This document shows, piece after piece, positions 5,528-39,170 of a stretch of DNA of 64,000 nucleotides. Within the stretch, counting starts at the first letter, position 1, and each line of letters opens with the position of its first letter. Source of the stretch: Patescibacteria group bacterium (lineage in GTDB: Bacteria; Patescibacteriota; UBA1384; XYA2-FULL-43-10; 1-14-0-10-43-13); the NCBI GenBank assembly GCA_041649155.1, contig JBAZNP010000001.1:3581-67580 (forward strand). The letters are read 5' to 3'. Below the pieces are notes generated by a model. That model saw nothing but the letters and a program-made list of their open reading frames with translations. It had not been told where the DNA came from and did not search any database. The translations under genes and the position numbers were made by a program.

Positions 5528-5562
5528 GTCATTCCGGACTTGATCCGGAATCTATATAAATA
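5528..5562 (+). repeat. Palindromic MITE-like element, family Q (gtcattccggacttgatccggaatctatataaata)
   Basis: Near-identical copy at 8520-8554, with a compensatory G:C versus A:T pair in the stem. It lies in the divergent RT/avd promoter region. Confidence 0.8.
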
Positions 5563-5579
5563 ATTATGAAGGACAACTC

Positions 5580-5927
5580 ATGCAAGAATTTGACATCCCG
5601 ATTTTTAAGAAAACTTATGATTTCTACAAAAATTTCCATTTACTTAGAGCTAAGATATCAAAGCAGGATCGTTACACTGTTTTTCAAAGGTGTGAAAATG
5701 TCATACTCGATTTGTTGGAAAGAATTTTAGAAGCAAGCCAATTAAGCAAGGCACAGAAACTGCCTGTGCTTGAAAAAGCCAGCTTAAAATTGAACTTTCT
5801 TAGAGTATTTTTGCGACTAATGAAAGATATAAAATCGATTGATCTAAAAATCTACGCTGGTTTTGAGCAGAATGTCGACGAAATCGGAAGAATGCTCGGC
5901 GGTTGGATTAAATCTACTAAAGAATAA
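5580..5927 (+). CDS. avd: DGR accessory variability determinant (Avd, four-helix-bundle protein)
   Basis: 115 aa. The C-terminus EIGRMLGGWIKSTKE matches the Bordetella phage bAvd C-terminus EVGRILGSWIARVNRK. LNFLRVFLRLMKDIK parallels LAMLRFWLRFLAGIQ. Confidence 0.85.
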   Translation: MQEFDIPIFKKTYDFYKNFHLLRAKISKQDRYTVFQRCENVILDLLERILEASQLSKAQKLPVLEKASLKLNFLRVFLRLMKDIKSIDLKIYAGFEQNVDEIGRMLGGWIKSTKE

Positions 5928-6033
5928 GTTCGCTTCGCTTCTTTTTACGCACTGATTTTTGACTAATATATCTTGTAATAAAAGAGGAAGCGCTCATTTT
6001 CACAAGCATTCCCTCTTCGCTCAGGAGAGACTT

Positions 6034-6166
6034 CGGGAGGAAGCCAGAGGCAGACCCATAGTTGTCGTTCGTATTGTCAACCCTGTTGGTGTCGAACTTG
6101 ACCTTGTCGTCGTTGAAGTTGAAGTACGGAGCCTTGTCGAACTCACCATCGGCCTCAGAATCTTTG
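6034..6166 (-). other. DGR template repeat (TR)
   Basis: 133 bp that align without gaps to 6609-6741. All 21 mismatches are T on the + strand here (A on the minus, coding strand) against C or A in the other copy. In frame it encodes N-rich AAC codons (NFNDDKVKFDTNRVDNTNDNY). Confidence 0.9.
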
Positions 6167-6469
6167 CTTTTGTCCATCTATATTCACTGGAAATTGAGCT
6201 TTACTTCCACTTAGCGCAGACTATATGCTCTCTTCCCTGTATTTCATTTGGCAGCAGCTCGATATGTATTCACCGAACATCCGCACCAGACAAAAACAAG
6301 CAGTATCTCCTCAACCAGGTGCACTCTTAGAAACCTTGGTCGCTAAGATTCTGACCTTTCTATTGATTTGAGATTTCGGCGGCAGCAATCCCTGCCTACC
6401 GGCAGGCAAGCGTAAACTACTACACATTAGCCTATTTTCATCGAAAGTATACACTAGCACAGCTTAATA

Positions 6470-6520
6470 TTGCAAAAAAAATGTAAAGAAAACAGGCTAT
6501 TCGTATGGTGGCGAATAGCC
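6470..6520 (-). terminator. Putative rho-independent terminator of the DGR target gene
   Basis: 9 bp stem ggctattcg/cgaatagcc with an 8 nt loop. On the minus strand it is followed by the U-rich run tgttttctttacattttttttg. Confidence 0.45.
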
Positions 6521-6532
6521 TGCGCGTAGCGA

Positions 6533-6545
6533 CCGCCTTCGGCGG
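6533..6545 (-). other. GC hairpin downstream of VR (candidate DGR homing hairpin)
   Basis: ccgcc ttc ggcgg lies 64 nt 3' of the VR/IMH end. DGRs commonly need a GC stem-loop in this position. Confidence 0.4.
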
Positions 6546-6602
6546 ACAGGATCAAGTGGCAAAGAGCCAAAAGATCCAAGGGATCTAAGAAACAAGGAAC
6601 AA

Positions 6603-7508
6603 CTACTGCGGGAGGAAGCCAGAGGCAGACCCACAGCTGCCGCTCGCAATGCCAACCCTGTCGGTGTCGAACCCGACCCTGACGCCGTCGAAGCCGAAGT
6701 ACGGAGCCTCGTCGAACCCACCAACGGCCCCAGAATCTTTGAACTCATCTCCTGCCATGTCAGCGTGGAGCTGCTCCCAGCGAATGAATCGCTCAGGGTG
6801 AGTCAGCATGATGGCGCCAAACGCGACGCTTCCGAGTCCGAACTCGTTGGTCACGAAGACCTCGCGAGCCCTTCGTACAGATCTGCCACGATGGCGCATG
6901 CCGAGCTGGGCAGCGATAATCAGAATATCGCCTTTCTGTGTCTCGGCGATCTTCTCAAGTGCTTGCGCGGTACGGGCGAGAAGCCTCAGTTGAGCCGGTG
7001 TAATCTGCCCATCACGATAGTTGTAGAACGATCGCATCTCTGCGATCTTGACATGGATGAGCTGGATTGCTCTGCAGTACTTCTCGTCCCGGTCAGTGAC
7101 CTCGGGGAAGTGCTTCAGCGCTATGGCCTCGACAGCGGGGACAGCGAACCATCCTTCTGCTCCCTTAGGGAGCTCGGGCAGGTTCTTCGCGTTCAGGAAC
7201 GCCTCAGTCGGGTCAAGTTCGAAGATCTTGGCGATTGCCGCGATCTGTTCCTCAATTGGCTTCGGTCCCTTATACTCCGGCGGGTAGACGTAGCTGGACG
7301 CCACTTCCTCGTTGGCGAACTGGTTAGTGGCAGAATGCTTCTCGATGGCTTTTCTTATGTCATCTTGAAGTGCGCCACCATTCTCGTTAAGACGCTGTGC
7401 TCGATCCTCGTCGAGCTGAGCCTGGTTGTAGACAGCCTCAAAGAGGCCAGTTGCGTGGAGACCTTTCGGGTCTCTGGACGTGATCAATGCTTTCTGCATC
7501 GTCATCAT
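6603..7508 (-). CDS. DGR variable target protein, with VR at the C-terminus; the ORF is open back to 7565 but an RBS supports a start at 7508
   Basis: ggagga RBS followed by ATGATGACGATG at 7508. The C-terminus is ...FDEAPYFGFDGVRVGFDTDRVGIASGSCGSASGFLPQ. The gene is conspicuously GC-rich compared with its neighbours. Confidence 0.8.
   Translation of the reverse strand: MMTMQKALITSRDPKGLHATGLFEAVYNQAQLDEDRAQRLNENGGALQDDIRKAIEKHSATNQFANEEVASSYVYPPEYKGPKPIEEQIAAIAKIFELDPTEAFLNAKNLPELPKGAEGWFAVPAVEAIALKHFPEVTDRDEKYCRAIQLIHVKIAEMRSFYNYRDGQITPAQLRLLARTAQALEKIAETQKGDILIIAAQLGMRHRGRSVRRAREVFVTNEFGLGSVAFGAIMLTHPERFIRWEQLHADMAGDEFKDSGAVGGFDEAPYFGFDGVRVGFDTDRVGIASGSCGSASGFLPQ
6609..6741 (-). other. 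DGR variable repeat (VR), including the IMH at its 3' end
   Basis: Counterpart of the TR. The 25 bp stretch cgggaggaagccagaggcagaccca (6609-6633) is identical in TR and contains no A on the coding strand, which is IMH-like. Confidence 0.9.
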
Positions 7509-7534
7509 CCTCCTTGTGTATAGGATTTGCCGTT

Positions 7535-7595
7535 CCTTGTGTGGAACAAGCACTCTATTGACCATATTTTGATCAACAAGGTGCTTGTTCCAAGG
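7535..7595. promoter_or_regulatory. Inverted repeat (ggaacaagcac ... gtgcttgttcc) in the promoter region of the DGR target gene; candidate operator
   Basis: 11 bp perfect arms (7543-7553 and 7581-7591) with ccttg/caagg extensions and a 27 nt spacer, 35-87 nt upstream of the start at 7508. Confidence 0.4.
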
Positions 7596-8517: not shown

Positions 8518-8519
8518 AT

Positions 8520-8586
8520 GTCATTCCAGACTTGATCTGGAATCTATATAAATAGTAGCTGGATCCCGTATCAAGTACGGGATGAC
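8520..8586 (+). repeat. Composite palindromic MITE-like element (modules Q and P, gtcat...atgac termini) in the rpmI-rplT intergenic spacer
   Basis: gtcattccagacttgatctggaatctatataaatagtagctggatcccgtatcaagtacgggatgac holds two hairpins whose loops, cttga and tcaag, are reverse complements. Confidence 0.8.
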
Positions 8587-8607
8587 AACCAATAAAGTGG
8601 AGACACA

Positions 8608-8949
8608 ATGAGAGTTAAAACAGGCGTAGTCAGAAGAGCTAAGCATAAAAATATATTAAAAAAAGCAAAAGGCTATATCGGACGAAGAAAATCCGTTTTT
8701 AAACTTGCAAAACAAGCTGTAATTAAAGCCGGTCAATATGCTTACCGTGACAGAAGAAACAAGAAAAGAGATTTTCGCTCTCTTTGGATCGTGAAGATTA
8801 ATGCTGCTGTCAGAGAATTTGGCATGAGCTATTCAGAGTTCATTAAAAAACTGTCTGATGCTCAAATACAGATCAACAGAAAAATATTGGCTGACTTAGC
8901 CCAAAACGAACCAGAGACATTTAAAGCGATTGTAGAAAAATTAAAATAG
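8608..8949 (+). CDS. rplT: 50S ribosomal protein L20
   Basis: [61 protein letters not shown]... Confidence 0.9.
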
Positions 8950-9057
8950 CATCCGGTATGGGCTATTTTATCCCGAAGGCACAGCTGAGGGATCTCAATT
9001 AAGATCAATTGAACTAGATATTAAAAAATCCGAGAAAAATCTCGGATTTTTTAATTT

Positions 9058-9128
9058 GTCATCCCCGCGAAGACGGAGATCCACAAAAGAAAATACTATC
9101 AGTAGATTCCCGCCTTCGCGGGAATGAC
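9058..9128. repeat. MITE-like element, family D (gtcatccccgcgaag...cttcgcgggaatgac), with terminal inverted repeats
   Basis: Related copies at 10676-10733 and 39063-39170 share the agacgg(a/g)gatccac and agtagattccc segments. Confidence 0.75.
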
Positions 9129-9137
9129 AGTGATTGA

Positions 9138-10631: not shown

Positions 10632-10675
10632 TTTGTTTTCTTTTAAGAATAATATTTAGGATTTATGCATTTGAT

Positions 10676-10733
10676 GTCATCTCCGTGTAGACGGGGATCC
10701 ACTAATAGTAGATTCCCTTCTTCAAGGGAATGA
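10676..10733. repeat. MITE-like element, family D copy
   Basis: gtcatctccgtgtagacggggatccactaatagtagattcccttcttcaagggaatgac. Confidence 0.75.
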
Positions 10734-10866
10734 CAGTGGATGACTTGCAATTTGTAATTATCATCAGAGAGAATCGTTAATCTATCCCTAAATATTATAG
10801 CCTGTTATTGACCAATGTTGTCAAGGATTGCTAAAATATATTAAGAAGAAGTAAAAAAAGGATCAA

Positions 10867-16300: not shown

Positions 16301-17638
16301 ATGATTTTAAAGATAAAAAAAACTAACGATCCAATATTGAGAGAGCCAGTTGAAAAAGTGGTTGATTTTGGTTTTGAATTTCAAAAGTTCATTGATGACA
16401 TGGTTGAGACAATGCACAAAAAAAACGGAGTTGGCTTAGCCGCCCCTCAGGTTGGAGAATCAAAAAACGTTTTCATATGCGGATTCGAAGGCGATAAAGA
16501 TAATGAAGACGAGAGAAAAATCAGTTTTCCATTAACCGTAATTTGCAACCCCAAGATAACCAATTTCAGCTCAAAAAAATGCAAAATGGTAGAAGGATGC
16601 CTTTCTTTCCCGGGAATGGAGTTAATAATCAACCGGCCGGAAGCAGTTACAATTCAGGGGCAAGATCGATATGGAAAGAATATTGAAATTAAAGCCGACG
16701 GTTTGTATGCAAGAGCGATACAGCATGAATATGACCATTTAAATTCAACTCTTTTAATTGACCGGTTGGAAGAAATTAAAATTATATTTATCGGCACAGG
16801 TACGCTTGGTGCCAAATCGCTTGAATTATTAGCAAAAGATCCTCAATATAAAATTTTGGCTGTTATAACAGGAAGCGAGAAAAAAGTTATAAGCCGAAAT
16901 AAAAGTGAAAAGAAAAATGTTATTCTTGAAATCGCTAAAAATAATAAGTTGAATGCAATAGTTACAGATAATATTAAAAATCCCGAAACTATAGAAAAAA
17001 TTAAGAAACTAAAGCCGGAATTAGGTGTGATGGCTGATTTTGGTCAGATTATCCCAAGAGAAGTTTTAGATATTCCCGAACACGGAGTCATCAACATTCA
17101 CCCATCACTTTTGCCAAAACATCGCGGCTCCTCCCCAATTCAACAAACAATTCTGGACGGCGACAAATTTACCGGCGTTTCGCTTATTCTGACATCGGAA
17201 AAAATGGATGCCGGCGACATTATTTCACAAACAAAAGTCGAATTATCAGGTGCTGAAACTAGCGGCATATTGAAAGACTATCTATCACAAATCGGCGCTT
17301 CCATGCTATTAAATTCAATTCCATACTACATGACAGGCGATTTAAAACCATTTCCCCAAAAAGAGGAAAAAGCAACTTATACAAAAATGATAAAGCCGGA
17401 AGACGGATATGTTGACGCCCAGACCAAAGCTGCAGTAGTAGAAAGAAAAGTCCGAGCCTTTGATCAATGGCCAAAAGTTTACACAAAAATCAAAAATAAA
17501 AGAGTGCAGATTACTTCATCTCATTTTGAAGAAGACGGCGTGTTTGTAATTGACAGGGTTAAGCCAGAAGGCAAAAAGGAGATGAATTATTCGGATTTTC
17601 AGAATGGTTACAAAACCGAGTTGACTTTTGACGCATAG
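16301..17638 (+). CDS. def-fmt: Bifunctional peptide deformylase / methionyl-tRNA formyltransferase (Def-Fmt fusion)
   Basis: Def motifs GVGLAAPQVG, EGCLSFPG and QHEYDHL are followed in one ORF by Fmt motifs IIFIGTGTLGAKSLELL and HPSLLPKHRGSSPIQ. Confidence 0.85.
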   Translation: MILKIKKTNDPILREPVEKVVDFGFEFQKFIDDMVETMHKKNGVGLAAPQVGESKNVFICGFEGDKDNEDERKISFPLTVICNPKITNFSSKKCKMVEGCLSFPGMELIINRPEAVTIQGQDRYGKNIEIKADGLYARAIQHEYDHLNSTLLIDRLEEIKIIFIGTGTLGAKSLELLAKDPQYKILAVITGSEKKVISRNKSEKKNVILEIAKNNKLNAIVTDNIKNPETIEKIKKLKPELGVMADFGQIIPREVLDIPEHGVINIHPSLLPKHRGSSPIQQTILDGDKFTGVSLILTSEKMDAGDIISQTKVELSGAETSGILKDYLSQIGASMLLNSIPYYMTGDLKPFPQKEEKATYTKMIKPEDGYVDAQTKAAVVERKVRAFDQWPKVYTKIKNKRVQITSSHFEEDGVFVIDRVKPEGKKEMNYSDFQNGYKTELTFDA

Positions 17639-17639
17639 C

Positions 17640-17681
17640 GTCATCCTGAGCGAAGCCGATAATCGGCTGAGTCGAAGGATC
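17640..17681 (+). repeat. Palindromic element, family B (gtcatcctgagcgaagccgataatcggctgagtcgaaggatc)
   Basis: Starts immediately after the def-fmt stop. Related partial copies at 28905-28927 and 29396-29420. Confidence 0.7.
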
Positions 17682-17698
17682 TTTTCCTAAAATTGCGG

Positions 17699-24300: not shown

Positions 24301-24647
24301 GTATGAACACCATTATTTAGGGCATCTGGTTTATAATAAAAATGACCGGCAGAATCTACCGTGACACTAGTCAATGTAGTTCCATCATACGAAATATCCA
24401 AAGAAGCATTTGGCGTAGCAGTCCCTTGTATTAAAGGATTATTTACATAAGTAAATCTTGAATTATTTGTTGGGGATAAAATTGTTGGCTGTATAATTGC
24501 ATTCTCATCTGCTTTAAAGAAAAATTTATACTTAAAAACGACGGCAAACAAGCCAGCAAACAAAAATACGCATATTAAAATAATAAGACGCACTTTTGTT
24601 TGATTGCCTAATTTATACATTAAATCACCCTCCTGGGGTTCGAACAC
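21321..24647 (-). CDS. Membrane-anchored GH5-family glycoside hydrolase with a C-terminal dockerin domain
   Basis: IFAWELVNEPFDTG is the GH5 NEP catalytic acid/base motif. The C-terminus GDSNNDSAVNIKDFSNLMSNW...ADFNEDNKVNISDFSIMMSYWG is a duplicated dockerin Ca-binding segment. N-terminal TM anchor. Confidence 0.7.
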   Translation of the reverse strand: MFEPQEGDLMYKLGNQTKVRLIILICVFLFAGLFAVVFKYKFFFKADENAIIQPTILSPTNNSRFTYVNNPLIQGTATPNASLDISYDGTTLTSVTVDSAGHFYYKPDALNNGVHTISVSDKTDNLVSAANKFKIEYGDDSKSILKSEGTQIIENDHPYYGNGANNFGAIVEMMGNPDQVEEGFANDEKAGIKMIRVINYMLDDMKLPDPTAAPTAAISDGGTLSAGSYVYRYTCANLSKTTFAYDYAETLASPATGAVTVSDSQKVSLTLKACAQSYRYLVYRRNTTDAVDSETYLGFAEAPAGQDATFIDDGSYRPSGIWADPTEAPTLETQARNTGATTTLEAGDYIYRYAFKEQRKPVNGKENGEKFVAGNNGTFLTLASPTAQVTVSGSEAVKVTVPTQNSPWAAIYRRKSSDLEGSEKFIAMIRSVNGVVSYVDEGVAATSPAIPTSNSTAAAGVLPTTNETKDNPRTQWPTGESSAYMTGFGNWNEDALVAADKVMALAQKYNVRIMFTFLDQHDNNTGGTREIARNCATTWNSSFFNDACSENMTDQIINKFLNRTNTVTGKVYKDDPAIFAWELVNEPFDTGSGGRLRSWINKISKYEKSIDPNHMLSSGDDGSVWFTHNYEAGFNANNNHDFVLSGISESIDLLTWHGYPESSGFVFNHGYYGQFDPTDSNKRGGLTDAEAADWIDKYGPVGGPIDVAGAIKQLKLRSHYATLMQKPVVFGEWGVDWTKSTSADWITGLSDAILDTKSDVNIGSDIFPDGTFQNSLSDNWHGSVNFTTDSVNQYNGHNTMKISFAKKDQTQYLRTVVSKKITVKPNTKYWYTFVTKSPTIESFNLSTSYYNADGTYISGGPGNQFGYAISNWEKFSQFNSGYCEFTTPSDATQIEFAITIYSGTDSDYLWLGDIHFYELTSPTESTTSAFASTGWWGVDLSSESNLSALQIAANKFEKKMFEGMTSLTEGMTLNSPTTNLARSFTYKAKYSVTGTKSTNVTRLIINGSEVDVPADITTWTKEVDLPIGTTTLTVIAEDSNRNQSEPLLISLIRRKSGDSNNDSAVNIKDFSNLMSNWNKTEIANTADFNEDNKVNISDFSIMMSYWGK

Positions 24648-25683: not shown

Positions 25684-27750
25684 ATGCAAAAGGTACAATT
25701 TAAAATTCATTCGCGTTACTCTCCGACCGGCGACCAACCGGAAGCTATTTTAAAATTATCTGAAAATATTAAGAAAAAAGTTAAACATCAAACCCTCTGG
25801 GGAGTGACCGGAAGCGGCAAAACTTTTACTATTGCCAATGTTATAGAAAAAACTCAAAAGCCGACCCTTGTCATTGCCCATAATAAAACTCTGGCTGCTC
25901 AGCTTGCTGATGAATTCAGACAATTCTTTCCAGAAAATGCAGTTCATTATTTTGTTTCATATTATGACTATTACCAACCAGAAGCATATATTCCTCATTC
26001 CGACACTTATATCGAAAAAGATTCTTCTATAAATGATGAAATTGATCGCCTCCGACATGCCGCGACTCATGCTCTTCTAACTAGAAGCGATGTCATCATT
26101 GTAGCTTCGGTCTCTTGTATTTATGGTATAGGTTCGCCTGAATTTTACAGAGCGGAAAATTTTACATTCAAGGTCGGGGAGAAAATTGAAAGAGATTATT
26201 TTTTGCACCAGTTAAATAATCTGCAGTTCAACCGCAATGACATCGAATTAAAAAGAGGCACGTATCGCCTTCATGGAGATACTTTGGAAATTTTTCCCGC
26301 TTACGAGACAAACACTGTAAAGGTAGAATTTTTTGGAGATAGTGTTGAAAAAATTATTGAAACTGACTGGATAACCGGCAAACAGGTAAAACAGCTTGAA
26401 TCGTTTGAAGTATTTCCGGCGAAGCACTTTATTACACCAGAAAACTTACAAAAAGAAGCAATAAAAAACATCAAGAAAGATCTTGAAGTTAGGGTAAATA
26501 GCCTAAAAAAGGCAGACAAATTGCTTGAAACCCAAAGGATCGAGCAGAGAACAAACTTTGACTTGGAAATGATTGAACAAACTGGATCTTGCTCCGGCAT
26601 TGAAAATTATTCAAGATATTTTGACGGACGAAAGCCAGGCATTCCGCCGACAACCCTTATTGATTATTTCCCTGACGATTTTTTAATGGTGATTGATGAA
26701 TCACACATAACTGTTCCACAAATCGGCGCCATGTATGCAGGAGACCGGTCAAGAAAAGAAAAACTTGTTGATTACGGTTTCAGACTTCCATCCGCTTTTG
26801 ACAATAGGCCATTTAGATTTGATGAATTTTACCACAAAATAAATCAGGTAATTTTCACGTCAGCAACCCCAAATGATTTTGAGTTAAGAAAAAGCTCTAG
26901 TGAGAATGTCATTTCGACCCATCCCGAGCCCACCGCTGGGTGGATCGAGGGAGGCGAGAAATCCCATCGCAATGCCGATAAACCTCAACCATATGATGGA
27001 GTTGTGAAACAATTCATAAGACCAACAGGCCTTCTTGATCCAAAGATTGAAATTAAAAAAACCAAAGGTCAAATAAATGATTTGATTGAAGAAATTAATA
27101 AAAAAGTAGTCAAAAATCAAAGGGTGCTAGTTACAACTCTCACTAAAAAAATGGCTGAAGCCCTGACAGATCATTTATTAGATCACAAAATTAAAGTGGC
27201 CTATATTCACTCTGACGTCGAGACGCTTGAACGTACTGAAATTTTGCACTCTTTGCGCTTGGGCGAATATGACGTTTTAATCGGAATCAATCTGCTTCGA
27301 GAAGGTCTTGATTTGCCAGAAGTTTCACTTGTTGCCATACTAGATGCTGATAAAGAAGGCTTTTTGCGAAGCAGAACCTCCCTGATCCAAACCATCGGTC
27401 GGGCAGCACGACATGTTGAAGGCAGAGTCATTATGTATGCCGATGTCATGACAGAATCGATGAAAATTGCAATTAACGAAACAAATATCAGAAGAGAAAT
27501 GCAAGAAAAATATAATAAAGATCACAACATCACGCCCAAAAGCACAGTGAGAAAACTTGAGCCCAAAGAAATTAAGGAAGAAAAAGAACAGCTTGAGATT
27601 GATCTGTCATTTAAAAAACTTCCAAAATCAGAAAAGAAAAGTGTTATTTCTGAGTTAAATATTCAGATGAAAAAAGCAGCGCAGCAGTTAGAGTTTGAAC
27701 ATGCTGCCCGCCTAAGAGATCAGATCACAAAACTTGAGAGTATGATATAA
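25684..27750 (+). CDS. uvrB: Excinuclease ABC subunit B
   Basis: [15 protein letters not shown] Walker A, helicase motifs and a UvrB/UvrC interaction C-terminus. It carries a ~25 aa insertion from a palindromic element. Confidence 0.9.
26908..26968 (+). repeat. In-frame palindromic element, family C, inside uvrB
   Basis: gtcatttcgacccatcccgagcccaccgctgggtggatcgagggaggcgagaaatcccatc encodes [21 protein letters not shown] second copy at 29706-29767 differs only by 5 transitions. Confidence 0.8.
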
Positions 27751-28227: not shown

Positions 28228-28905
28228 ATGACAGATTTCAAATTAGACGCAAAATTAAGACAAGATGCCCCCAACAAAACCAGAAATGAAGGTTTTGTAC
28301 CGGCAATTGTGTATGGAAAAGGTTTTGACAACATTCAAATTGCTTTGGAAAAAATTAGCTTCATGAAGCTTTTCAAAGAAGCTGGAACTTCAAACCTTAT
28401 TGATTTAGTAATCGATGGCGGTAAAAGCGTTAAAACTCTGATCAACGACATACAGCTTGATCCTATTAAGTCAGATATTATTCATGTTGATTTTTACAAA
28501 GTGAACATGAAAGAAAAAATTCACGCAGAAGTCCCATTGAAATTTGTTGGCGACTCTATTGCTGTCATCGACAAAGAAGGATCTTTAATCACCAGCAAAG
28601 ATTCAATTGAAGTTGAATGTTTGCCTGCTGATCTTATTCCTGAACTTGAAGTCGACATTTCTGTCTTGGATGACTTTGAGAAAAATATTAAGATTTCAGA
28701 TCTTAAGTTGCCAGAAGGAATTGAAATTCAAGATGATCCAGAAGAGATTATCGCTCACGTTGAAGAACCTAGAAGCGAACAGGAACTAGAAGAACTTGAA
28801 ACCGAAGTTGTTGAAGATGTTTCAGCTATTGAAGTTGAAAATAAGGGCGAAGAAACTCCTGCTGAGGGCGAAGGCGAAAAAGCAGAAGAAAAATCCGCTG
28901 AATAG
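28228..28905 (+). CDS. rplY: 50S ribosomal protein L25 / general stress protein Ctc, with an acidic tail
   Basis: N-terminal L25 fold sequence ...RNEGFVPAIVYGKG... and a beta-barrel C-domain. Confidence 0.8.
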   Translation: MTDFKLDAKLRQDAPNKTRNEGFVPAIVYGKGFDNIQIALEKISFMKLFKEAGTSNLIDLVIDGGKSVKTLINDIQLDPIKSDIIHVDFYKVNMKEKIHAEVPLKFVGDSIAVIDKEGSLITSKDSIEVECLPADLIPELEVDISVLDDFEKNIKISDLKLPEGIEIQDDPEEIIAHVEEPRSEQELEELETEVVEDVSAIEVENKGEETPAEGEGEKAEEKSAE

Positions 28906-29085
28906 TCCTGAGCAAAGTCGAAGGAAGTAAATTCATTTATATCAAGCGATATATAATTCAAAAATGCCCCAAAGGGGCGTTTTTGAAATCTGATCTGAAA
29001 ATTGATAAATTAATAATTAAATGAAAATTGTCCCAACGATAAATATCGGGATCCCGATCGAAGCATCGGGAAAAATTCTAATTAT

Positions 29086-30246
29086 ATGAAGTACTTTGTT
29101 AAAGTCTATGGCTGCCAATATAACGAATGGGATGCAGCCAGAATAAGCTACATGTTAAAAAGCATCGGCTTGATTGAATCGTCCGAAAAGGATGCCGATA
29201 TTATTTTTGCATTGTCTTGCTCAGTTCGCAAAAGTGCTGTTGACCGCATAATGGGAATGGTCAAAAATTGGCAAGGCAAAAAGGTCGTCATTACAGGCTG
29301 CGTTCTTCCAAATGATAAACCAAAATATTTAAAAAAGAACGTCATTCTTTGGGATAATAAAAAGCCGGAAGATTTGAAAGATATTCTCCCACACTGTCAT
29401 TCTGAGCAAAGCGAAGAATCTCAAGATCATTCAGCTACGCCTCAAGATGACAAAATTAGCAAACTATTAAACAGCGGCAATTCCTCCTCCGCCTATCTCC
29501 CAATAATGATAGGCTGCAATAATTTTTGCTCTTATTGCGCCGTCCCATACACCAGAGGACGCGAAGAATCCAGACCCTTTAATGAAATCATGAGTGATTT
29601 CAAAAAAATGGTTGAAAAGGGATACAAAGAAATAATGCTCTTAGGCCAAAACGTAAATAGCTACAGAATTCAGAACGCAGATAACAGAATACAGCAAAAC
29701 AAAGCTGTCATTTCGACCCATTCCGAGCCCACCGTTGGGTGGATTGAGGAAGGCGAGAAATCCCATCACGATAAGTCTGGCTTTGCCATACTACTAGAAA
29801 CCTTAGATAAAATCCCAGGTGATTTCATGATTTCATTTACTTCAAACCATCCAAAAGATATGACTGATGACATTATTACTGCAGTTAAAAATTTACCAAA
29901 AGTGAAGAAAGAAATTCACCTGCCGCTTCAATCCGGAAGCAATGAAGTTTTAAAAGCAATGAACCGACCCTATACCATAGAGAAATATTTAGAACTAATC
30001 GAAAAAATAAAGAAAGAAATTCCGACTGTTTCGATTACAACCGACATTATTGTTGGTTTTCCGAACGAAACGGAAGAAAATTTTCGAAAAACCGTGGAAA
30101 TATTCAAAAGAATCAACTTCAAATCTGCCTACATAAATAAGTACTCTCCCCGTTCCGGAACAGCCGCCTTCAAACTCGGCGACCCAATCCTTTGGACAGA
30201 AAAACAACGTCGCTGGAAAATATTGAATGATATTGCGAATAAATAA
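29086..30246 (+). CDS. MiaB/RimO-family radical-SAM methylthiotransferase (no obvious TRAM domain)
   Basis: MTTase N-domain and the radical SAM CNNFCSYCAVPYTRGRE (CxxxCxxC). It contains two in-frame palindromic-element insertions. Confidence 0.7.
   Translation: MKYFVKVYGCQYNEWDAARISYMLKSIGLIESSEKDADIIFALSCSVRKSAVDRIMGMVKNWQGKKVVITGCVLPNDKPKYLKKNVILWDNKKPEDLKDILPHCHSEQSEESQDHSATPQDDKISKLLNSGNSSSAYLPIMIGCNNFCSYCAVPYTRGREESRPFNEIMSDFKKMVEKGYKEIMLLGQNVNSYRIQNADNRIQQNKAVISTHSEPTVGWIEEGEKSHHDKSGFAILLETLDKIPGDFMISFTSNHPKDMTDDIITAVKNLPKVKKEIHLPLQSGSNEVLKAMNRPYTIEKYLELIEKIKKEIPTVSITTDIIVGFPNETEENFRKTVEIFKRINFKSAYINKYSPRSGTAAFKLGDPILWTEKQRRWKILNDIANK
29396..29420 (+). repeat. In-frame small palindromic element (gtcattctgagcaaagcgaagaatc) inside the miaB-like gene
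   Basis: Encodes the HCHSEQSEES insertion. Same family as the element at 17640. Confidence 0.65.
29706..29767 (+). repeat. In-frame palindromic element, family C, inside the miaB-like gene
   Basis: gtcatttcgacccattccgagcccaccgttgggtggattgaggaaggcgagaaatcccatc encodes VISTHSEPTVGWIEEGEKSH, in the same frame as the uvrB copy. Confidence 0.8.
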
Positions 30247-30285
30247 TATTTGCAATTAATATTAGAGATTAATGTAATTAAAAAG

Positions 30286-30325
30286 ATGTGATAATTTTTG
30301 CGCGGCCACGATATTTTTATCACAT
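30286..30325. repeat. 40 bp palindromic repeat, copy 1 (atgtgataatttttgcgcggccacgatatttttatcacat)
   Basis: Identical to 30978-31017. It has 9 bp inverted arms atgtgataa/ttatcacat. It overlaps the last codons of the Cas2-like gene. Confidence 0.9.
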
Positions 30326-30946
30326 CAAATCTTTTAATGATAAAACATTTTTATTTAAAAAGTGGTCGATTATCTTATCTTCCCCCATTGCTATGTCTAC
30401 TATTAAGTAAGATAAATATTCTTTTGAACAAGTGAAGAAACAAAGCGCATCGATTTCTTTTTTGCAATCAAACGGGTAGACAAAAACGCTCTCCTGAATT
30501 TTTTCAAAGCCCATTTCTTCAAGTTTTCTTCTAATTATATCTCTTGTCGTTTTTTTCTTCTCTGGCACATCAAATATTACTAAACGAAATTTTTTATCCC
30601 AAATCTTTGGGCGATGTTTCGGCAATTCGCCAAGCTTATGCCACACTATTTTTTTAAATCCCTTATCGGTTAACTCAGCAAACTTTTCATTATTTTTCAA
30701 AAAAGTTTTGATTAATCCCTGTTTTTCTAAGTAATATATATGATTTCTAAAATCGCTAGAGGCATTCATCCTTTTGGCATATTCCTGAACGCTTACCGAT
30801 TGATATGGATTCTTTTCTAGATCGATCAAAAAGTTTTCAACTCCTTCAAATAAACAAACGAATATCTCTTTTGCTGATTGTTTTATTCTTTGCTTAATAC
30901 CCTTCTTTTTTTCAGAGTCTTTTTTTGACTCATTTTCACTCATCAC
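30320..30946 (-). CDS. wHTH (PaaX-like N-domain) fused to a Cas2-like/VapD-fold C-terminal domain; putative regulator
   Basis: RLVIFDVPEKKKTTRDIIRRKLEEMGFEKIQESVFVYPFD matches the Cas2 core (LVxxDVxxxxxxRxxxxxxLxxxGxxxQxSVFxxxxD). The N-terminal YYLEKQGLIK region looks like a winged helix. Confidence 0.55.
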   Translation of the reverse strand: MMSENESKKDSEKKKGIKQRIKQSAKEIFVCLFEGVENFLIDLEKNPYQSVSVQEYAKRMNASSDFRNHIYYLEKQGLIKTFLKNNEKFAELTDKGFKKIVWHKLGELPKHRPKIWDKKFRLVIFDVPEKKKTTRDIIRRKLEEMGFEKIQESVFVYPFDCKKEIDALCFFTCSKEYLSYLIVDIAMGEDKIIDHFLNKNVLSLKDLM

Positions 30947-30977
30947 CCCCCCTTTTTTTTATTTATTATAAAGTAAT

Positions 30978-31017
30978 ATGTGATAATTTTTGCGCGGCCA
31001 CGATATTTTTATCACAT
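30978..31017. repeat. 40 bp palindromic repeat, copy 2, about 30 bp upstream of the Cas2-like gene start
   Basis: Perfect 40/40 identity with copy 1. Candidate operator or recombination site. Confidence 0.9.
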
Positions 31018-34080: not shown

Positions 34081-34335
34081 TTACCCTGTGAAATACGATT
34101 TGAGTCGATTTCGCAAGAATTGTTTACCTCTAAAACTTTTTAAATATTTTTCTCTATGTGTTGCGTCTTTTTGACAAACGCAAGCTTCATAATATATTAA
34201 TTTCAATGGCCTACGATCTTTAGTTGAATCAACCAACCCATTCTCATGTTTCTCAAATCGTAATTTTAAATTTTTCGTATAACCTGTATACATTTTACCA
34301 TCATTTTGCGAATGTAGGATATAGACATAAAACAT
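34081..34335 (-). CDS. GIY-YIG nuclease superfamily protein (standalone, 84 aa)
   Basis: FYVYILHSQNDGKMYTGYTKNLKLRFEKH is a GIY-YIG motif. Confidence 0.7.
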   Translation of the reverse strand: MFYVYILHSQNDGKMYTGYTKNLKLRFEKHENGLVDSTKDRRPLKLIYYEACVCQKDATHREKYLKSFRGKQFLRNRLKSYFTG

Positions 34336-35810: not shown

Positions 35811-35812
35811 AG

Positions 35813-36382: not shown

Positions 36383-36391
36383 TTCTCTCCT

Positions 36392-37648
36392 TTATTTATT
36401 AATTCCGGGTACTGGAAACTTTGTACACATTTCACGTATTTCTTCTTTTATTTCTGCCAATTTTTCGTCATTATCTTTGTTTTCATAAACCAGATTAAAT
36501 AGCTCCGCGATTCTTTGCATTTCAACCAAACCCATACCGCGAGTAGTTAATGCGGCGACCCCAACTCTAATTCCAGAAGTGACTGCCGGAGGAAGAGGAT
36601 CGCCTGGGATTGCATTTTTATTTACTGTGATTTCTGCTTTGCCAAGCGCATCTTCAAATTCTTTTCCAGTAATATTTTTACTTCGTAAATCAACAAGACA
36701 TAAGTGATTGTCGGTTCCGCCACTAACCAAATTGAAATCAAAAGAGCTTAAAGTTTCAGCAAAGCAACTCATATTTTGAACAATATTTTTTGCGTATTCT
36801 TTAAAACTTGGCTTTAAAGCTTCACCAAAAGCTACTGCTTTTGCAGCAATAATATGCTCATGGGGACCGCCCTGTAACCCTGGAAATACCGCCTTATCAA
36901 TCGCTTTGGCATATTTTTCTTTGCAAATAATCATTGCGCCTCGTGGCCCTCGTAGTGTTTTGTGAGTTGTTGTCATCACAACATCAACAAACGGAAAAGG
37001 GCTTGGATGAACTCCGCCAATGATCAGGCCTGATATATGAGAAATGTCAGCCATGTGAATCGCGCCCACTTCGTCAGCAATTTCCTGAAATTTTTTGAAA
37101 TCAATTTGGCGAGGATAAGCCGTAGCGCCTGATACGATAATTTTTGGCTTATGTTTTTTTGCTAACTCTCTAACTTCATCATAGTTAATTCTTTGATCAT
37201 CTTCGCGAACACTATATTGTATGAAATTGTATGCACGACCGGAAAAATTAACTTTATGGCCATGAGTTAAATGACCCCCTTGAGCCAAGCTCATTCCCAT
37301 TAAAGTGTCTCCAAATTCTGCCAATGCAAAATAGATGGCAATATTAGCAGGAGAACCGGAGTATGGTTGAACATTGGCGTGCCATTCTGGCTCAGATAAG
37401 CCAAAAAGTTTCAATGCTCGTTCGCAAGCTAGAGTTTCCACCTTGTCAGTCCATTCTTGTCCGCCATAATATCTTTTTCCTGGATACCCCTCTGAATATT
37501 TATTGGTAAAAATAGAGCCCATCAATTCTAATACTGCTTCCGAAACATAATTCTCTGAGGCTATCATTTCCAAGCCTTCCTTCTGCCTCTTTTTTTCACC
37601 CTCTAAAATTTTAGATACTTCTTTATCACTTATTTTTACTGTGCTCAT
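36392..37648 (-). CDS. glyA: Serine hydroxymethyltransferase
   Basis: [15 protein letters not shown]-lysine region, GLQGGPHEH and YSGSPAN blocks. Confidence 0.9.
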
Positions 37649-37703
37649 TCCGCTCCTTCCTTAAAATCAACAACCTACTATTCTATTTATTATTATTGTT
37701 GTT

Positions 37704-37788
37704 GTCATCCCAGACTGCAATCTTGAGATCTGGGATCCAGAAATTTTTACTACGAACTTCCTAGATTCCAGATCAAGTCTGGAATGAC
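37704..37788. repeat. Composite palindromic MITE-like element (modules P and Q), intergenic copy
   Basis: gtcatcccagactgcaatcttgagatctgggatccag...attccagatcaagtctggaatgac. Inverted relative to 8520. An inverted, diverged copy is inserted in rsmH. Confidence 0.8.
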
Positions 37789-37808
37789 AATGTATTTCAG
37801 ATCATTAT

Positions 37809-38900
37809 TTACCACCTTAGAGTTTGGTCTGCTTGATCAAGATGTTGCTGCTCGGTGTCAATGTTTAATTTTGATGTGACAATATTATAAATCTCTTTTT
37901 CAATATCCCCGATTTCTTTTTCGCCGTCAATAATAACGAAACGATTACTTTCATCTTTTGCTAAAAGTTCATAAGTCGCTAAAGTTTTTTCTAATTTTTT
38001 CTCTTCCTCAAAAAGTTCAAAACCATCTCGGGACTTTCCTATGCGATCAATGCAAACTTCCGGCGGAACTTTAATAAAAAAAGTAATATCGGGCAAAATA
38101 AAATGCTTGTTAATTTCTCTTAGCCATTCTATATCAGCGCCAATTGAACCGAAAGCAATACTAGAAAAAAGGTAGCGGTCAGTAATTACAACATCCCCTT
38201 TATCTAAATTTGGGATGATGGTATGCTTTAAATGATGTGATCGATCGGCAGCATACAAAAGTTGGAATCCTTCTGCTGGAATCGTCCATTCTTTTGTTAA
38301 AACCCCTCGAATCAATCCACCAATCAGATTATTGGTTGGTTCTTTAGTTGTAGAAACTGTCAGGCCATTCCCCCGTAGATTTTTTGCTAATAAATCCACC
38401 TGGGTTGTGCTACCAGATCCGTCAAGACCTTCGAACGCAATAAATAAGCCTTTTTGACTACATTCCTTGGCTGTATGCTTTTTTCCAGTAGAGCCAAATC
38501 CGTTCATACCACGATCCGAAGCTGATAATTCTTCAACTATTTGAATATTTGGATGCTCGATCTTTTGAACTAACAGTTGAGCTACCTTGTCTCCCTTTTC
38601 TATTATATAATCCTCTTGACCAAGATTAAGAAGACTAACATGATATTCTCCTCGATAACCTGCGTCCATTACGCCGCCCATGGTTTTAATTGAATGTTTT
38701 GTTGCTAATCCGCTTTTGTCCCATATTAAAGCTACATGATCATCAGGAATTTCTATAGCCAGTCCAGTTTTAATACTGAGAACTTCGTTTGGTTTTAGTA
38801 CACAATTTTCGATACTAAACAAATCCATTCCCGCATCATTATGATGTGCAAATTCTGGAACAATTGCGTCAGGATGTAATTTTTTAACTTTTAAGTCCAT
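37809..38900 (-). CDS. dut-tmk: Bifunctional dUTP diphosphatase / thymidylate kinase (Dut-Tmk fusion)
   Basis: Dut motifs DAGMDL, GVMDAGYRGEY and RGMNGFGSTGK. Tmk P-loop FEGLDGSGSTTQ and a lid region. One continuous 363 aa ORF. Confidence 0.8.
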   Translation of the reverse strand: MDLKVKKLHPDAIVPEFAHHNDAGMDLFSIENCVLKPNEVLSIKTGLAIEIPDDHVALIWDKSGLATKHSIKTMGGVMDAGYRGEYHVSLLNLGQEDYIIEKGDKVAQLLVQKIEHPNIQIVEELSASDRGMNGFGSTGKKHTAKECSQKGLFIAFEGLDGSGSTTQVDLLAKNLRGNGLTVSTTKEPTNNLIGGLIRGVLTKEWTIPAEGFQLLYAADRSHHLKHTIIPNLDKGDVVITDRYLFSSIAFGSIGADIEWLREINKHFILPDITFFIKVPPEVCIDRIGKSRDGFELFEEEKKLEKTLATYELLAKDESNRFVIIDGEKEIGDIEKEIYNIVTSKLNIDTEQQHLDQADQTLRW

Positions 38901-39062
38901 TAAATAACCACAATTAATTGCTTAGCTTTAGTTCATTTTTATTTTTGTTATTTTTTGTTTGTTTCCGTCTGGGCTCGAGCCAGCCGAGACTGATGCCTAT
39001 TTATTATAGAGGTAAAAACAAAAAACTCAAACTAGTCTTATCCACAACACTCCACCCCCACT

Positions 39063-39170
39063 GTCATTCCTGAATCAAGTTCAGGACAAGCTCTCGGGAA
39101 GGCAACGCCATGGCCCGAGGATCAAAAATATTAATATACTATTAGCAGATCCCCTTCTTTAAGGGAATAA
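39063..39170. repeat. MITE-like element (family D-related) with a gtcattcctgaatcaagttcaggac hairpin
   Basis: Shares agcagatccccttctttaagggaataac with the 9058 and 10676 copies. Confidence 0.65.

What the first reader, a model, noticed from the sequence alone, without database searches (positions are those of the whole stretch)
5528..39170. Several families of hairpin-forming MITE-like repeats with gtcat...atgac termini and compensatory stem mutations
At least four related families are present. Family Q appears at 5528, 8520, 37764 and 62732. Family P forms composites with Q at 8520-8586 and 37704-37788. Family B is at 17640, 28905 and 29396. Family C is at 26908 and 29706. Family D is at 9058, 10676 and 39063. 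The copies at 5528 and 8520 differ by a G:C to A:T compensatory pair that preserves the stem. This argues that the hairpin, whether DNA or RNA, is what selection maintains. Copies sit at the starts and ends of operons, for example directly after the def-fmt and rplY stops and between rpmI and rplT.
Basis: seen in the sequence. Interest (0 to 1): 0.55.

Follow-up and report, generated by a model that had tools for sequence, protein, structure and literature searches.

The report
CGTC-tagged REP hairpin repeats in Patescibacteria
The repeats are real, small mobile DNA hairpins of an already described superfamily (CGTC-tagged REPs, which includes Rickettsia RPE-4/-6 and Neisseria dRS3). Here they are in a tiny candidate-phyla-radiation genome, where several copies sit in frame inside essential genes.

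Summary
The basic unit is (C/T)GTC, an 8-bp stem starting A-T/T-A, a 4-5 nt loop, the returning stem, and a C(C/T)A tail. Two units usually face each other with the tags outward, 59-111 bp overall. The inner stem pairs differ between copies by fully compensated changes.

This matches feature by feature the CGTC-tagged REP superfamily of Di Nocera et al. 2013 (PMC3733652). That family has no known transposase.

The window comes from a Patescibacteria MAG, a phylum not listed in that paper.

Syntenic relatives show clean filled and empty sites. A 57-64 nt subfamily occupies the same reading frame in seven different genes.

An unbiased pattern scan found the same hairpin in MAGs and isolates of many phyla and in viral contigs. 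About 90% of those hits were fully Watson-Crick at the unconstrained pair positions.

Best reading: selfish, non-autonomous, REPIN-like mobile hairpins whose stem is needed for propagation. The mobilising enzyme remains unknown.

Verdict: new member of a known kind, moderate interest.

The parts
5527..5554 (+). Solo CGTC-2 unit: tag CGTC, stem ATTCCGGA/TCCGGAAT, loop CTTGA, tail CTA. It lies between the divergent DGR reverse transcriptase and bAvd genes.
8519..8587 (.). Head-to-head heterodimer with tags outward. Q unit 8520-8546(+) and P unit 8560-8586(-, stem ATCCCGTA/TACGGGAT). It fills the rpmI-rplT spacer and starts 3 nt after the rpmI stop.
   Evidence: (z = -5.1)
9057..9129 (.). Head-to-head dimer of 4-nt-loop (CGTC-1-type) units. 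The left unit (9058-9082) has 2 broken pairs; the right unit is 9106-9128(-). It lies between convergent rplT and lspA, downstream of the rplT hairpin plus T-run at 9024-9052.
   Evidence: D6, D18; z = -5.4
10675..10735 (.). Head-to-head dimer of CGTC-1-type units: 10676-10698(+), loop GTAG, and 10712-10734(-), loop GAAG. It lies between the divergent lgt and signal peptidase I genes.
   Evidence: z = -3.5
17639..17683 (+). Family B long unit: CGTC tag, outer stem ATCCT/AGGAT, inner hairpin AGCCGA-TAA-TCGGCT, tail C. It starts 2 nt after the def-fmt stop and lies upstream of the rpsP promoter-like site.
   Evidence: (present in L127, absent in L129)
26907..26970 (+). Family C element (64 nt, long imperfect hairpin) in frame inside uvrB. 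It encodes [20 protein letters not shown]. The net insertion is 60 bp relative to relatives.
   Evidence: (D7)
28904..28927 (+). Decayed family B relic (aGTCcTGAGCAAAGTCGAAGGAag) overlapping the rplY stop. It differs from L128 by a 12-nt indel.
29395..29451 (+). Family B short unit (GTCATTCTGAGCAAAGCGAAGAATC) plus a degenerate partner ending ATGAC. It is in frame inside the miaB-like radical-SAM gene and is shared with L128.
29706..29769 (+). Second family C element, in frame in the miaB-like gene and in the same reading frame as the uvrB copy (VISTHSEPTVGWIEEGEKSH).
   Evidence: (D7)
37703..37789 (.). Head-to-head heterodimer. P-long unit 37704-37736(+), 14-nt loop, and Q unit 37765-37788(-). 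It lies between glyA (SHMT) and the dut-tmk fusion gene, and is absent from the same spacer in L128.
   Evidence: I7; z = -3.6
39062..39172 (.). Decayed composite: a left unit with a 7-bp stem, an internal extra hairpin, and a right CGTC-1-like unit whose tag has mutated to GTT. It lies between dut-tmk and rnhB.
   Evidence: D6; z = -3.2
62731..62820 (.). Head-to-head heterodimer (Q 62732-62756(+), decayed P-long about 62786-62820(-)). It is exactly 30 codons, in frame in rsmH (RHSRPDLESRNTTGKPTSWIPDLKLTVRDD).

Best explanation
These are CGTC-tagged REPs: short palindromic DNA units with a (C/T)GTC tag, an 8-bp stem, a 4-5 nt loop and a ~CCA tail. Most are arranged as head-to-head dimers, and some are longer nested-hairpin variants (families B and C). 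They behave as selfish, non-autonomous, REPIN-like mobile elements in a Patescibacteria genome.

Shown:
- The anatomy of the units.
- An excess over chance.
- Compensated stems.
- Discrete presence or absence at orthologous sites in relatives.
- The same 64-nt element at 92-97% identity in different genes and genomes whose host genes are only 75-87% identical.
- In-frame survival in loops of essential proteins.
- Occurrence of the same hairpin in many phyla and in viral contigs.

Inferred:
- Copies spread by a trans-acting enzyme that recognises the tagged hairpin, probably on single-stranded DNA. This would resemble the way RAYT/IS200-type HUH enzymes handle GTAG REPs, which insert and excise without target duplications.
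- The need for that hairpin is what keeps the arms complementary.
- Copies persist only where harmless: in intergenic spacers, or in frame and stop-free in surface linkers.
- Any effect on RNA, or as an outward -35-like ATGACA hexamer, is secondary.
For: - Anatomy and excess over chance.
- Covariation in genomes: in 129 hits from a genome scan whose pattern left three pair positions free, 116 (90%) are Watson-Crick at all three (chance about 3%), with 16 distinct stem types.
- Covariation in viral contigs: 111 of 118 hits are fully paired.
- Covariation in family C: 95.5% of cells are paired, 6 pairs change on both sides, 0 of 500 shuffles reach this, and slid controls give 30-57%.
- The flanking tag and tail, which the pattern did not constrain, match the family: C or T before GTC in 121/129 hits, and tail CCA in 73/129.
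- Dimer architecture: 66 of 76 adjacent +/- pairs are spaced 45-114 bp.
- Filled and empty orthologous sites: uvrB 60 bp, miaB-like, glyA/dut-tmk spacer, def-fmt/rpsP, rsmH.
- Element copies are 92-97% identical, against 75-87% nucleotide identity for the host genes.
- One 57-64 nt subfamily sits in a single frame in seven different genes.
- Literature match: PMC3733652.
Against: - No transposition event is observed directly.
- No candidate mobilising enzyme was found in the window or next to copies elsewhere.
- Gene trees among the relatives are mosaic. Gain, precise loss and recombinational transfer therefore cannot be separated.
- No target-site signature could be defined. Flanks at empty sites are only loosely similar (T-rich, then AA).
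- Single B and C copies do not fold better than shuffles.
- Only 64 kb of a roughly 0.6-0.8 Mb genome was visible, so there is no genome-wide census or strand bias.
- The ssDNA/HUH-like mechanism is an analogy with GTAG REPs, not a result.
Confidence: 0.75

Rival explanations
1. The hairpins are kept mainly as functional RNA elements: 3' mRNA stabilisers, attenuators or terminators, or small-RNA genes. Their dispersal would be a by-product.
For: Several copies start 2-3 nt after a stop codon: def-fmt and rpmI. PMC3733652 reports that REPs lie mostly downstream of ORFs and are probably transcribed. The 37686-37807 dimer gives a sub-threshold match (34 bits, E about 1e-5) to Rfam WsnRNA46, a Wolbachia sRNA whose consensus is itself such a dimer.
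Against: Five elements are inside ORFs. Copies also lie between divergent genes (5528, 10676). One lies after a normal hairpin plus T-run terminator. None of the canonical Q, P or D stems carries a T-run; the scan flagged only two short sub-stems inside elements (17663 in B, 37729 between units). Close relatives lack the copies at the same sites with no visible replacement. No Rfam family reaches its gathering score.
Confidence: 0.13
2. They are recognition or attachment sites for another mobile element or a host DNA-binding protein. Neisseria dRS3 serves this way as the integration site for filamentous prophages via an IS110-type recombinase, and E. coli REP/BIME binds gyrase and IHF. Under this view they are kept because of that interaction.
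For: CGTC-1 in Neisseria equals dRS3. That dRS3 is a prophage integration site is from my own recollection and was not checked in a paper here. One IS30-like gene lies between REP dimers in a Sphingopyxis locus. Hairpins are present in many viral or prophage contigs.
Against: No IS or prophage interrupts or abuts any of the window's copies. No recurrent neighbouring protein family appears in 120 loci from other genomes. In-frame intragenic copies make poor attachment sites. The variable stems argue against one sequence-specific binder.
Confidence: 0.06
3. They arise de novo and repeatedly through replication or repair errors (template switching, hairpin-primed synthesis) at favourable sequences, rather than by transposition of pre-existing copies.
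For: No transposase is known for the whole superfamily. The same protein loops (UvrB residue 404/406 junction, the RsmH loop) carry different palindromic inserts in many lineages.
Against: Copies in unrelated genes share 57-64 nt at 92-97% identity, including loop and non-paired positions. The tag, loop and tail are the same in distant phyla. Neither fact is expected from independent de novo origin.
Confidence: 0.04
4. Chance similarity or an assembly artefact.
For: None beyond the short length of each unit.
Against: There are 5 matches against 0 expected, and 17 against 3.5. The rsmH copy is identical in independent assemblies from ENA and Logan, and in the 100%-identical NCBI protein P0001. 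Copies are conserved in relatives from other samples.
Confidence: 0.01

Closest known systems
CGTC-tagged REPs, families CGTC-1 to CGTC-4 (Di Nocera, De Gregorio and Rocco 2013, BMC Genomics 14:522, PMC3733652)
   Same: A CGTC or TGTC unpaired tag. An 8-bp stem beginning A-T, T-A. A loop of 4 nt (the window's D units, CGTC-1-like) or 5 nt (Q and P units, CGTC-2-like). A short tail near CCA. Mostly head-to-head dimers with tags outside, heterodimers common. Intragenic in-frame copies, including in uvrB. No associated transposase.
   Different: The host is a Patescibacteria/CPR genome of roughly 0.6-0.8 Mb; the paper lists Proteobacteria, Chlorobi, Bacteroidetes, Spirochaetes and Thermotogae. 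Spacers are at or below the paper's 20-100 bp range in three of the four compact intergenic dimers (19, 23 and 13 nt). The tail is CTA as often as CCA. Families B, C and P-long have much larger or nested loops than the 4-5 nt given for the family.
Rickettsia palindromic elements (RPE-4 and RPE-6 are CGTC-4 and CGTC-1 REPs per PMC3733652; RPE-1 is the classic protein-coding palindrome)
   Same: Palindromic repeats inserted in frame into many unrelated housekeeping genes of a reduced genome. They are tolerated in surface loops and show proliferation and decay between relatives.
   Different: The lineage is different, and the long family C (57-64 nt) differs in sequence from the 100-150 nt RPE-1. 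No direct sequence comparison with RPE consensus sequences was possible here.
GTAG REPs / REPINs mobilised by RAYT (IS200/IS605-type HUH tyrosine transposases)
   Same: The logic is the same: a 4-nt tag plus hairpin, inverted doublets as the mobile unit, no target duplications, and intergenic dispersal.
   Different: The tag is CGTC rather than GTAG. No RAYT or other tyrosine transposase is flanked by these units in the literature or in the loci examined here.
Neisseria dRS3 / NIME repeats
   Same: dRS3 is a CGTC-1 REP per PMC3733652. The window's ATTCCCGC-GAAG-GCGGGAAT unit at 9106-9128 has the ATTCCC...GGGAAT form.
   Different: In Neisseria the units cluster in large mosaic arrays and act as prophage integration sites. 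Here they are dispersed dimers and intragenic inserts.
Rfam RF02625 WsnRNA46 (Wolbachia small RNA)
   Same: The model consensus is a GTCAT...GGGATCCAG...CTGGATTCC...GGATGAC dimer. The window's 37686-37807 aligns end to end with it.
   Different: The score of 34 bits is well under the 65-bit gathering threshold, so it is not a member. The resemblance is the shared REP-dimer architecture.
Classical bacterial MITEs (for example Correia/NEMIS, QMITE1)
   Same: Small, non-coding, dispersed, with inverted ends, and able to sit in or near genes.
   Different: No target-site duplication, no IS-derived terminal inverted repeats, and no parent IS. Each end is itself an independent hairpin.

Membership tests
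CGTC-tagged REP superfamily (PMC3733652) | Unpaired 5' tag CGTC (often TGTC) | tested here: met
   All 17 YGTCATYYC matches carry a CGTC or TGTC tag, and 13 of them lie at element ends (17 found against 3.5 expected). In scan hits the base before GTC was left free and is C or T in 121/129.
CGTC-tagged REP superfamily (PMC3733652) | Stem of 8-9 bp whose first two pairs are A-T and T-A | tested here: met
   Eight strict window units all have 8-bp stems starting AT. In other genomes 232/254 units have 8-bp stems.
CGTC-tagged REP superfamily (PMC3733652) | Loop of 4 nt (CGTC-1) or 5 nt (CGTC-2 to -4) | tested here: met
   Q and P units have CTTGA or CCTGA. D units have GAAG or GTAG. Exceptions are the P-long 14-nt loop and families B and C, which have nested interiors.
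CGTC-tagged REP superfamily (PMC3733652) | 3-nt unpaired tail, mostly CCA | tested here: met
   Window tails are CCA (8562, 10676, 37704, 62732) or CTA (5528, 8520, 9128, 10734, 37788). In the scan hits CCA occurs in 73/129 and CTA in 20/129.
CGTC-tagged REP superfamily (PMC3733652) | Predominantly head-to-head dimers (tags outside), spacer 20-100 bp | tested here: met
   Six of the seven loci with canonical Q/P/D-type units are head-to-head composites. 66/76 adjacent +/- pairs elsewhere are spaced 45-114 bp overall. The 8520, 9058 and 10676 spacers (19, 23 and 13 nt) are at or below the published lower bound.
CGTC-tagged REP superfamily (PMC3733652) | No flanked or dedicated transposase gene | tested here: met
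   No transposase was found among the roughly 40 window ORFs scanned. No recurrent neighbouring family appears in 120 loci. Genes bracketed by dimers are phage portal, phage tail and one IS30-like gene. The rest of the genome was not visible.
Rickettsia palindromic elements (protein-coding palindromes) | In-frame insertion into unrelated conserved protein genes, absent from orthologues | tested here: met
   uvrB, a miaB-like gene (three elements) and rsmH in the window. The elements are absent from close orthologues. The same element occurs in MiaA, ATP synthase delta, IleS-like, TrmD and a radical-SAM activase in relatives.
Rickettsia palindromic elements (protein-coding palindromes) | Sequence homology to RPE consensus sequences | not tested
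The link rests on PMC3733652 equating RPE-4 and RPE-6 with CGTC-4 and CGTC-1.
GTAG REP / REPIN-RAYT system | GTAG (GT[AG]G) tag at the hairpin foot | tested here: not met
   The tag is CGTC or TGTC in all units.
GTAG REP / REPIN-RAYT system | A RAYT gene flanked by the same REPs in the genome | not testable with these tools
   Only 64 kb plus a few 10-kb flanks of the roughly 0.6-0.8 Mb genome are readable. None was seen in what was read.
Classical MITE | Target-site duplication flanking copies | tested here: not met
   The filled/empty comparisons at uvrB, miaB-like and glyA/dut-tmk show no duplicated flank. The uvrB net gain is 60 bp for a 64-nt conserved core.
Classical MITE | Terminal inverted repeats derived from a resident IS | tested here: inconclusive
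   The ends are inverted (GTCAT...ATGAC), but each end is a self-contained hairpin. No IS was found in the window. The full genome was not available.
Rfam RF02625 WsnRNA46 | Score at or above the gathering threshold (65.3 bits) | tested here: not met
   34.1 bits for 37686-37807. There were no other Rfam hits at gathering score.
Intrinsic terminators | GC-rich hairpin followed directly by a T-run | tested here: not met
   None of the canonical Q, P or D stems is called and their tails are CCA or CTA; only short sub-stems at 17663 and 37729 are listed. rplT and rplY have their own hairpin plus T-run at 9024-9052 and 28966-28990.

The most novel reading that the evidence does not exclude
CGTC hairpins may have no dedicated transposase at all. 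They could be moved by a ubiquitous housekeeping single-strand-DNA processing activity.

This would explain three observations. The same tag, stem and loop are found in many phyla, in viral contigs, and in a roughly 0.6-0.8 Mb Patescibacteria genome with no visible transposase. The elements insert and disappear seamlessly. A 57-64 nt 'VISTH' subfamily has recently colonised at least seven essential genes in one reading frame.

If so, these minimal genomes would be the smallest search space in which to identify the activity behind an orphan class of mobile DNA.
Probability: 0.15. Interest if true: 0.75.

Novelty: new member of a known kind. Interest (0 to 1): 0.4.

Why it matters
The finding extends an orphan class of mobile palindromes, whose mobilising enzyme has been unknown since 2013, to the candidate phyla radiation.

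In that setting the elements have turned over recently. They are embedded in frame in UvrB, RsmH, a MiaB-like enzyme and, in relatives, in TrmD, MiaA, an IleS-like synthetase and ATP synthase delta.

There is a practical consequence for annotation. Such inserts inflate and diversify CPR protein sequences, create spurious small ORFs, and can mislead alignments and phylogenies.

There is also a biological opening. A genome of only about 0.6-0.8 Mb that still shows lineage-specific spread narrows the list of candidate mobilising activities. The wide phylum range and presence in viral contigs raise the question of how near-identical hairpins are shared so broadly.

Tried and rejected
- A literature search by short sequence strings returned only primer matches and was useless.
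- Rfam at gathering score found only tmRNA and one tRNA. E-value mode gave weak hairpin-type hits, the only informative one being WsnRNA46.
- ARAGORN found no tRNA-like copies.
- I looked for a cis-encoded enzyme in two ways. Clustering all ORFs of 120 loci from other genomes gave no family present in more than 7 loci. Searching for ORFs bracketed by inverted units found a phage portal gene (recurrent in Sphingomonad prophage or GTA-like regions), a phage tail gene and one IS30-like gene, but no recurrent transposase.
- Pfam on about 40 window ORFs found no transposase, integrase or HUH protein.
- Target-site duplications were looked for at three filled/empty site pairs and not found.
- An attempt to polarise gain versus loss failed. 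Gene identities among the four syntenic genomes are mosaic, for example thrS L127-L128 91% against window 64%, and miaB window-L128 88% against L127 74%.
- Single-sequence folding of B and C copies is not better than shuffles, so their hairpin rests on covariation only.
- The idea that the DGR next to the 5528 copy is connected with the repeats was considered and dropped. The other copies have no DGR context.
- A resemblance of the loop plus first stem base (TTGAT) to the ISDra2 target pentanucleotide was noted from memory and not pursued.

Full report
**Observation**

The common unit is (C/T)GTC, an 8-bp stem that begins A-T, T-A, a loop of 4-5 nt, the complementary arm, and then C(C/T)A. Q units (ATTCCRGA-CYTGA-TCYGGAAT) are at 5528, 8520, 37764-37788(-) and 62732. 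A P unit (ATCCCGTA-CTTGA-TACGGGAT) is at 8562-8586(-).

A P-long form with a 14-nt loop is at 37704-37736. In decayed form it is also at about 62786-62820(-). D units with 4-nt loops (GAAG or GTAG) are at 9058, 9106-9128(-), 10676 and 10712-10734(-).

Two units normally face each other with the tags outward:
- 8519-8587
- 9057-9129
- 10675-10735
- 37703-37789
- 62731-62820
- 39062-39172, which is decayed

Family B (GTCATYCTGAGC...GAAGRATC) is at 17640 in a long form with an inner hairpin and at 29396 in a short form. At 28905 it survives only as a relic. Family C (64 nt) is at 26907-26970 and 29706-29769, and the two copies are 92% identical.

The G:C to A:T double change between 5528 and 8520 is exact.

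**Significance**

The degenerate 25-mer has 5 matches against 0.00 expected in shuffles. YGTCATYYC has 17 matches against 3.5 +/- 1.8.

As single-stranded DNA the intergenic dimers fold with z from -3.2 to -5.4. Single B and C copies and the intragenic rsmH dimer do not beat shuffles (z -0.2 to -1.7).

**Context**

The window is 36.6% G+C. It comes from a 603-kb ENA metagenome contig. The same proteins occur on a 798,787-bp NCBI contig annotated as 'Patescibacteria group bacterium'.

Intergenic copies:
- 8519-8587 sits 3 nt after the rpmI stop and before rplT.
- 17639-17683 starts 2 nt after the stop of a def-fmt fusion gene.
- 9057-9129 lies between convergent rplT and lspA, downstream of a normal hairpin plus T-run (9024-9052).
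- 10675-10735 lies between divergent lgt and lepB.
- 5527-5554 lies between a divergent DGR reverse transcriptase and bAvd.
- 37703-37789 and 39062-39172 flank a dut-tmk fusion gene.

- Family C in uvrB.
- Family B and family C in a miaB-like radical-SAM gene.
- A decayed B partner in the same miaB-like gene.
- A 30-codon Q/P dimer in rsmH.

In UvrB the insert falls where residues 405-438 of the query correspond to a one-residue junction (404/406) of the solved UvrB structure 9gy7_E.

**Comparative evidence for turnover**

Syntenic loci from related Patescibacteria were fetched (L123-L129).

| Site | Element present | Element absent |
|---|---|---|
| uvrB, clean 60-bp difference | window, L127 | L128, L129 |
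| miaB-like, family C site | window, L127 | L128, L129 |
| glyA/dut-tmk spacer dimer | window | L128 |
| B element after def-fmt | window, L127 | L129 |
| rsmH | window | L125 |

At the rsmH site, L123 carries an element at the same codon with a nested insertion. L124 keeps only a remnant (..caagttcaggatgac).

Relatives also carry units where the window has none, for example L123 2109-2175 and L127 4604-4627. No target-site duplication is visible at any of these junctions.

The four family C copies (two genes, two genomes) are 92-97% identical. Their host genes are only 75-87% identical at the nucleotide level. This points to recent spread or homogenisation.

Gene identities among these genomes are mosaic. 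Gain, seamless loss and recombinational transfer therefore cannot be told apart.

**Family C more widely**

A metagenome scan for its outer stem with a free interior gave 56 loci. The 57-nt class splits into subfamilies whose inner stems differ by compensated changes.

On 16 distinct copies:
- 95.5% of cells are paired, against 30-57% when partners are slid.
- Six pairs change on both sides.
- 0 of 500 shuffles reach the observed score.

Two caveats apply. The outer stem was fixed by the search pattern, and the subfamilies represent few independent events.

One subfamily encodes V-I-S-T-H-x-E-P-x-x-G-x-x-E-x-G-E-K-S. It lies in long ORFs, always in the same frame and orientation. The host genes are UvrB, the MiaB-like protein, MiaA, ATP synthase delta, an IleS-like synthetase, TrmD and a radical-SAM activase. 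Five of the six frames are stop-free. The other main subfamily is mostly intergenic.

The UvrB and RsmH loops also carry other palindromic inserts in many CPR homologues, for example 'VIPAKAGIQ'.

**Distribution**

The taxa include Patescibacteria lineages, Dehalococcoidia, Elusimicrobia, Dependentiae, Omnitrophota, Ignavibacteria, Campylobacterota, Bacteroidota, Spirochaetes, Planctomycetota, many Sphingomonads (including cultured strains) and one Methanosarcinales MAG.

Of 129 hits, 116 are Watson-Crick at all three free pairs (chance about 3%), with 16 different stem types. The unconstrained base before GTC is C or T in 121. The unconstrained tail is CCA in 73.

In the same loci 254 strict hairpins were found, and 232 of them have 8-bp stems. 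Of 76 adjacent +/- pairs, 66 are 45-114 bp apart.

A scan of viral contigs also saturated, and 111 of 118 hits are fully paired. MAG contamination and provirus boundaries are caveats for single taxa. They do not affect the overall breadth.

**Identification**

These features match the CGTC-tagged REPs of Di Nocera, De Gregorio and Rocco (2013, PMC3733652):
- A terminal CGTC, often TGTC.
- Stems of 8 bp (families 1 and 2) or 9 bp, with A-T and T-A first.
- Loops of 4 nt (family 1) or 5 nt.
- Tails near CCA.
- Predominantly head-to-head dimers with tags outside; heterodimers are common in CGTC-2.
- Intragenic copies, notably in DNA-repair genes including R. conorii uvrB.
- No associated transposase.

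That paper equates CGTC-1 with Neisseria dRS3, and equates CGTC-1 and CGTC-4 in R. conorii with RPE-6 and RPE-4. It lists five phyla, not CPR.

A full-text search found no report of such elements in Patescibacteria. That library is incomplete, so this is not proof of absence.

Rfam has no family for them at gathering score. The sub-threshold match to WsnRNA46 (34 against 65 bits) reflects that this Wolbachia sRNA model is itself such a dimer.

**Mechanism**

The evidence shows dispersed, discrete, structurally constrained units that come and go between close relatives. They survive only where they are harmless.

I infer, by analogy with GTAG REPs/REPINs and RAYT, that a trans-acting enzyme recognises the tagged hairpin, probably on single-stranded DNA. 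I further infer that this requirement maintains arm complementarity. Seamless junctions without duplications fit that class of mechanism.

The enzyme is unknown:
- None was seen in the window.
- None recurs next to copies elsewhere.
- The literature reports none.

RNA-level roles are possible for some copies but cannot explain the intragenic, divergent-promoter and post-terminator positions. Roles as attachment or protein-binding sites, and de novo origin, are less likely.

**Verdict**

It is incomplete on placement, and the repeats are not novel in kind.

This is a new member and a new host phylum of a known superfamily. It comes with a useful set of filled/empty sites and a protein-coding palindrome subfamily in CPR bacteria. 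Interest is moderate (0.4).

Noticed in passing
window 4443-7565: A complete diversity-generating retroelement. It has a reverse transcriptase (4443-5519, -), bAvd (5580-5927, +), a template repeat at 6030-6166 and a variable repeat at 6605-6741, which lies at the 3' end of target ORF 6603-7565 (-). Essentially all mismatches are T in the template copy against C or A in the variable copy on the + strand. On the coding strand that is adenine-specific mutagenesis (D3, 17, 78).
   Followed up: partly
window 42026-47440 (-): An 1804-aa ORF containing 198-nt tandem repeats (4-6 copies, 67-100% identical; D1/D2). The neighbouring large ORFs 19653-21284 and 21321-24647 have bacterial Ig-like and dockerin domains. 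These are probably surface proteins.
   Followed up: no
window 30283-30325 and 30975-31017: A 43-nt direct repeat (98% identical), itself containing an inverted repeat (ATGTGATAA...TTATCACAT). It brackets ORF 30320-30946 (-), which has a PaaX/Cas2-like domain (D19, 57). It could be a small cassette or a pair of operators.
   Followed up: no
window 8582-8609, 10651-10680, 37680-37708, 5505-5532: The tagged end of the elements reads ATGACA or ATGACG outward, a 4-5 of 6 match to the -35 hexamer TTGACA. At four elements the promoter scan pairs it with a -10-like hexamer pointing into the neighbouring gene. In an AT-rich genome this may be chance. Two cases (lgt, glyA) have plausible geometry.
   Followed up: partly
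UvrB and RsmH homologues P0004, P0013, P0126-P0212; L123 2224-3342: The same two protein loops carry unrelated palindromic or low-complexity inserts in many Patescibacteria. These are the UvrB junction after helicase motif III and the RsmH loop before INGALIDLG. Examples are 'VIPAKAGIQ', 'PHPTSPRAGEE', 'HPASPYKGEG' and 'PSPLRGEARWGE'. L123 has a nested insertion inside the right-hand hairpin.
   Followed up: partly
L123 3412-3684; window 34081-34335 (-): Small stand-alone GIY-YIG nuclease ORFs (84-90 aa). One is conserved next to thrS in the window, L127 and L128. An extra copy sits between rsmH and queH only in L123, which suggests it is itself mobile.
   Followed up: no
window vs L127/L128/L129, genes uvrB, rplY, miaB-like, thrS, trmD: Protein and nucleotide identities among these syntenic genomes are strongly mosaic. 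thrS is 91% between L127 and L128 but 64% to the window. miaB is 88% between the window and L128 but 74% to L127. trmD is 82% between L127 and L129 but 71% to the window. This indicates frequent recombination or gene replacement among related Patescibacteria.
   Followed up: partly
window 16301-17638, 37809-38900, 47583-48386: Gene fusions: def-fmt (peptide deformylase plus formyltransferase), dut-tmk (dUTPase plus thymidylate kinase), and an HTH-Hsp20 fusion.
   Followed up: no
window 49096-49484 (-), 39927-40003 (+), 49803-53575: tmRNA and tRNA-Val (GAC) genes. Next to the tmRNA lie a 925-aa STAND/AAA-type NTPase ORF and two adjacent NYN-domain ORFs that look like one split gene. This is possibly a defence island at a tmRNA integration hotspot.
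   Followed up: no
window 29645-29705: Immediately upstream of the family C copy in the miaB-like gene, the window has about 40 extra in-frame nucleotides with an internal direct repeat (cagaattcag...cagaatacag, encoding RIQNADNRIQQNKA). These are absent from L127, L128 and L129.
   Followed up: no
window 37737-37764 vs 62757-62785: The two Q/P-long dimers carry similar spacers in the same + strand orientation (CAGAAAT...AACTTCCT), while the positions of the Q and P-long units are swapped. This suggests exchange or inversion between units of a dimer.
   Followed up: no
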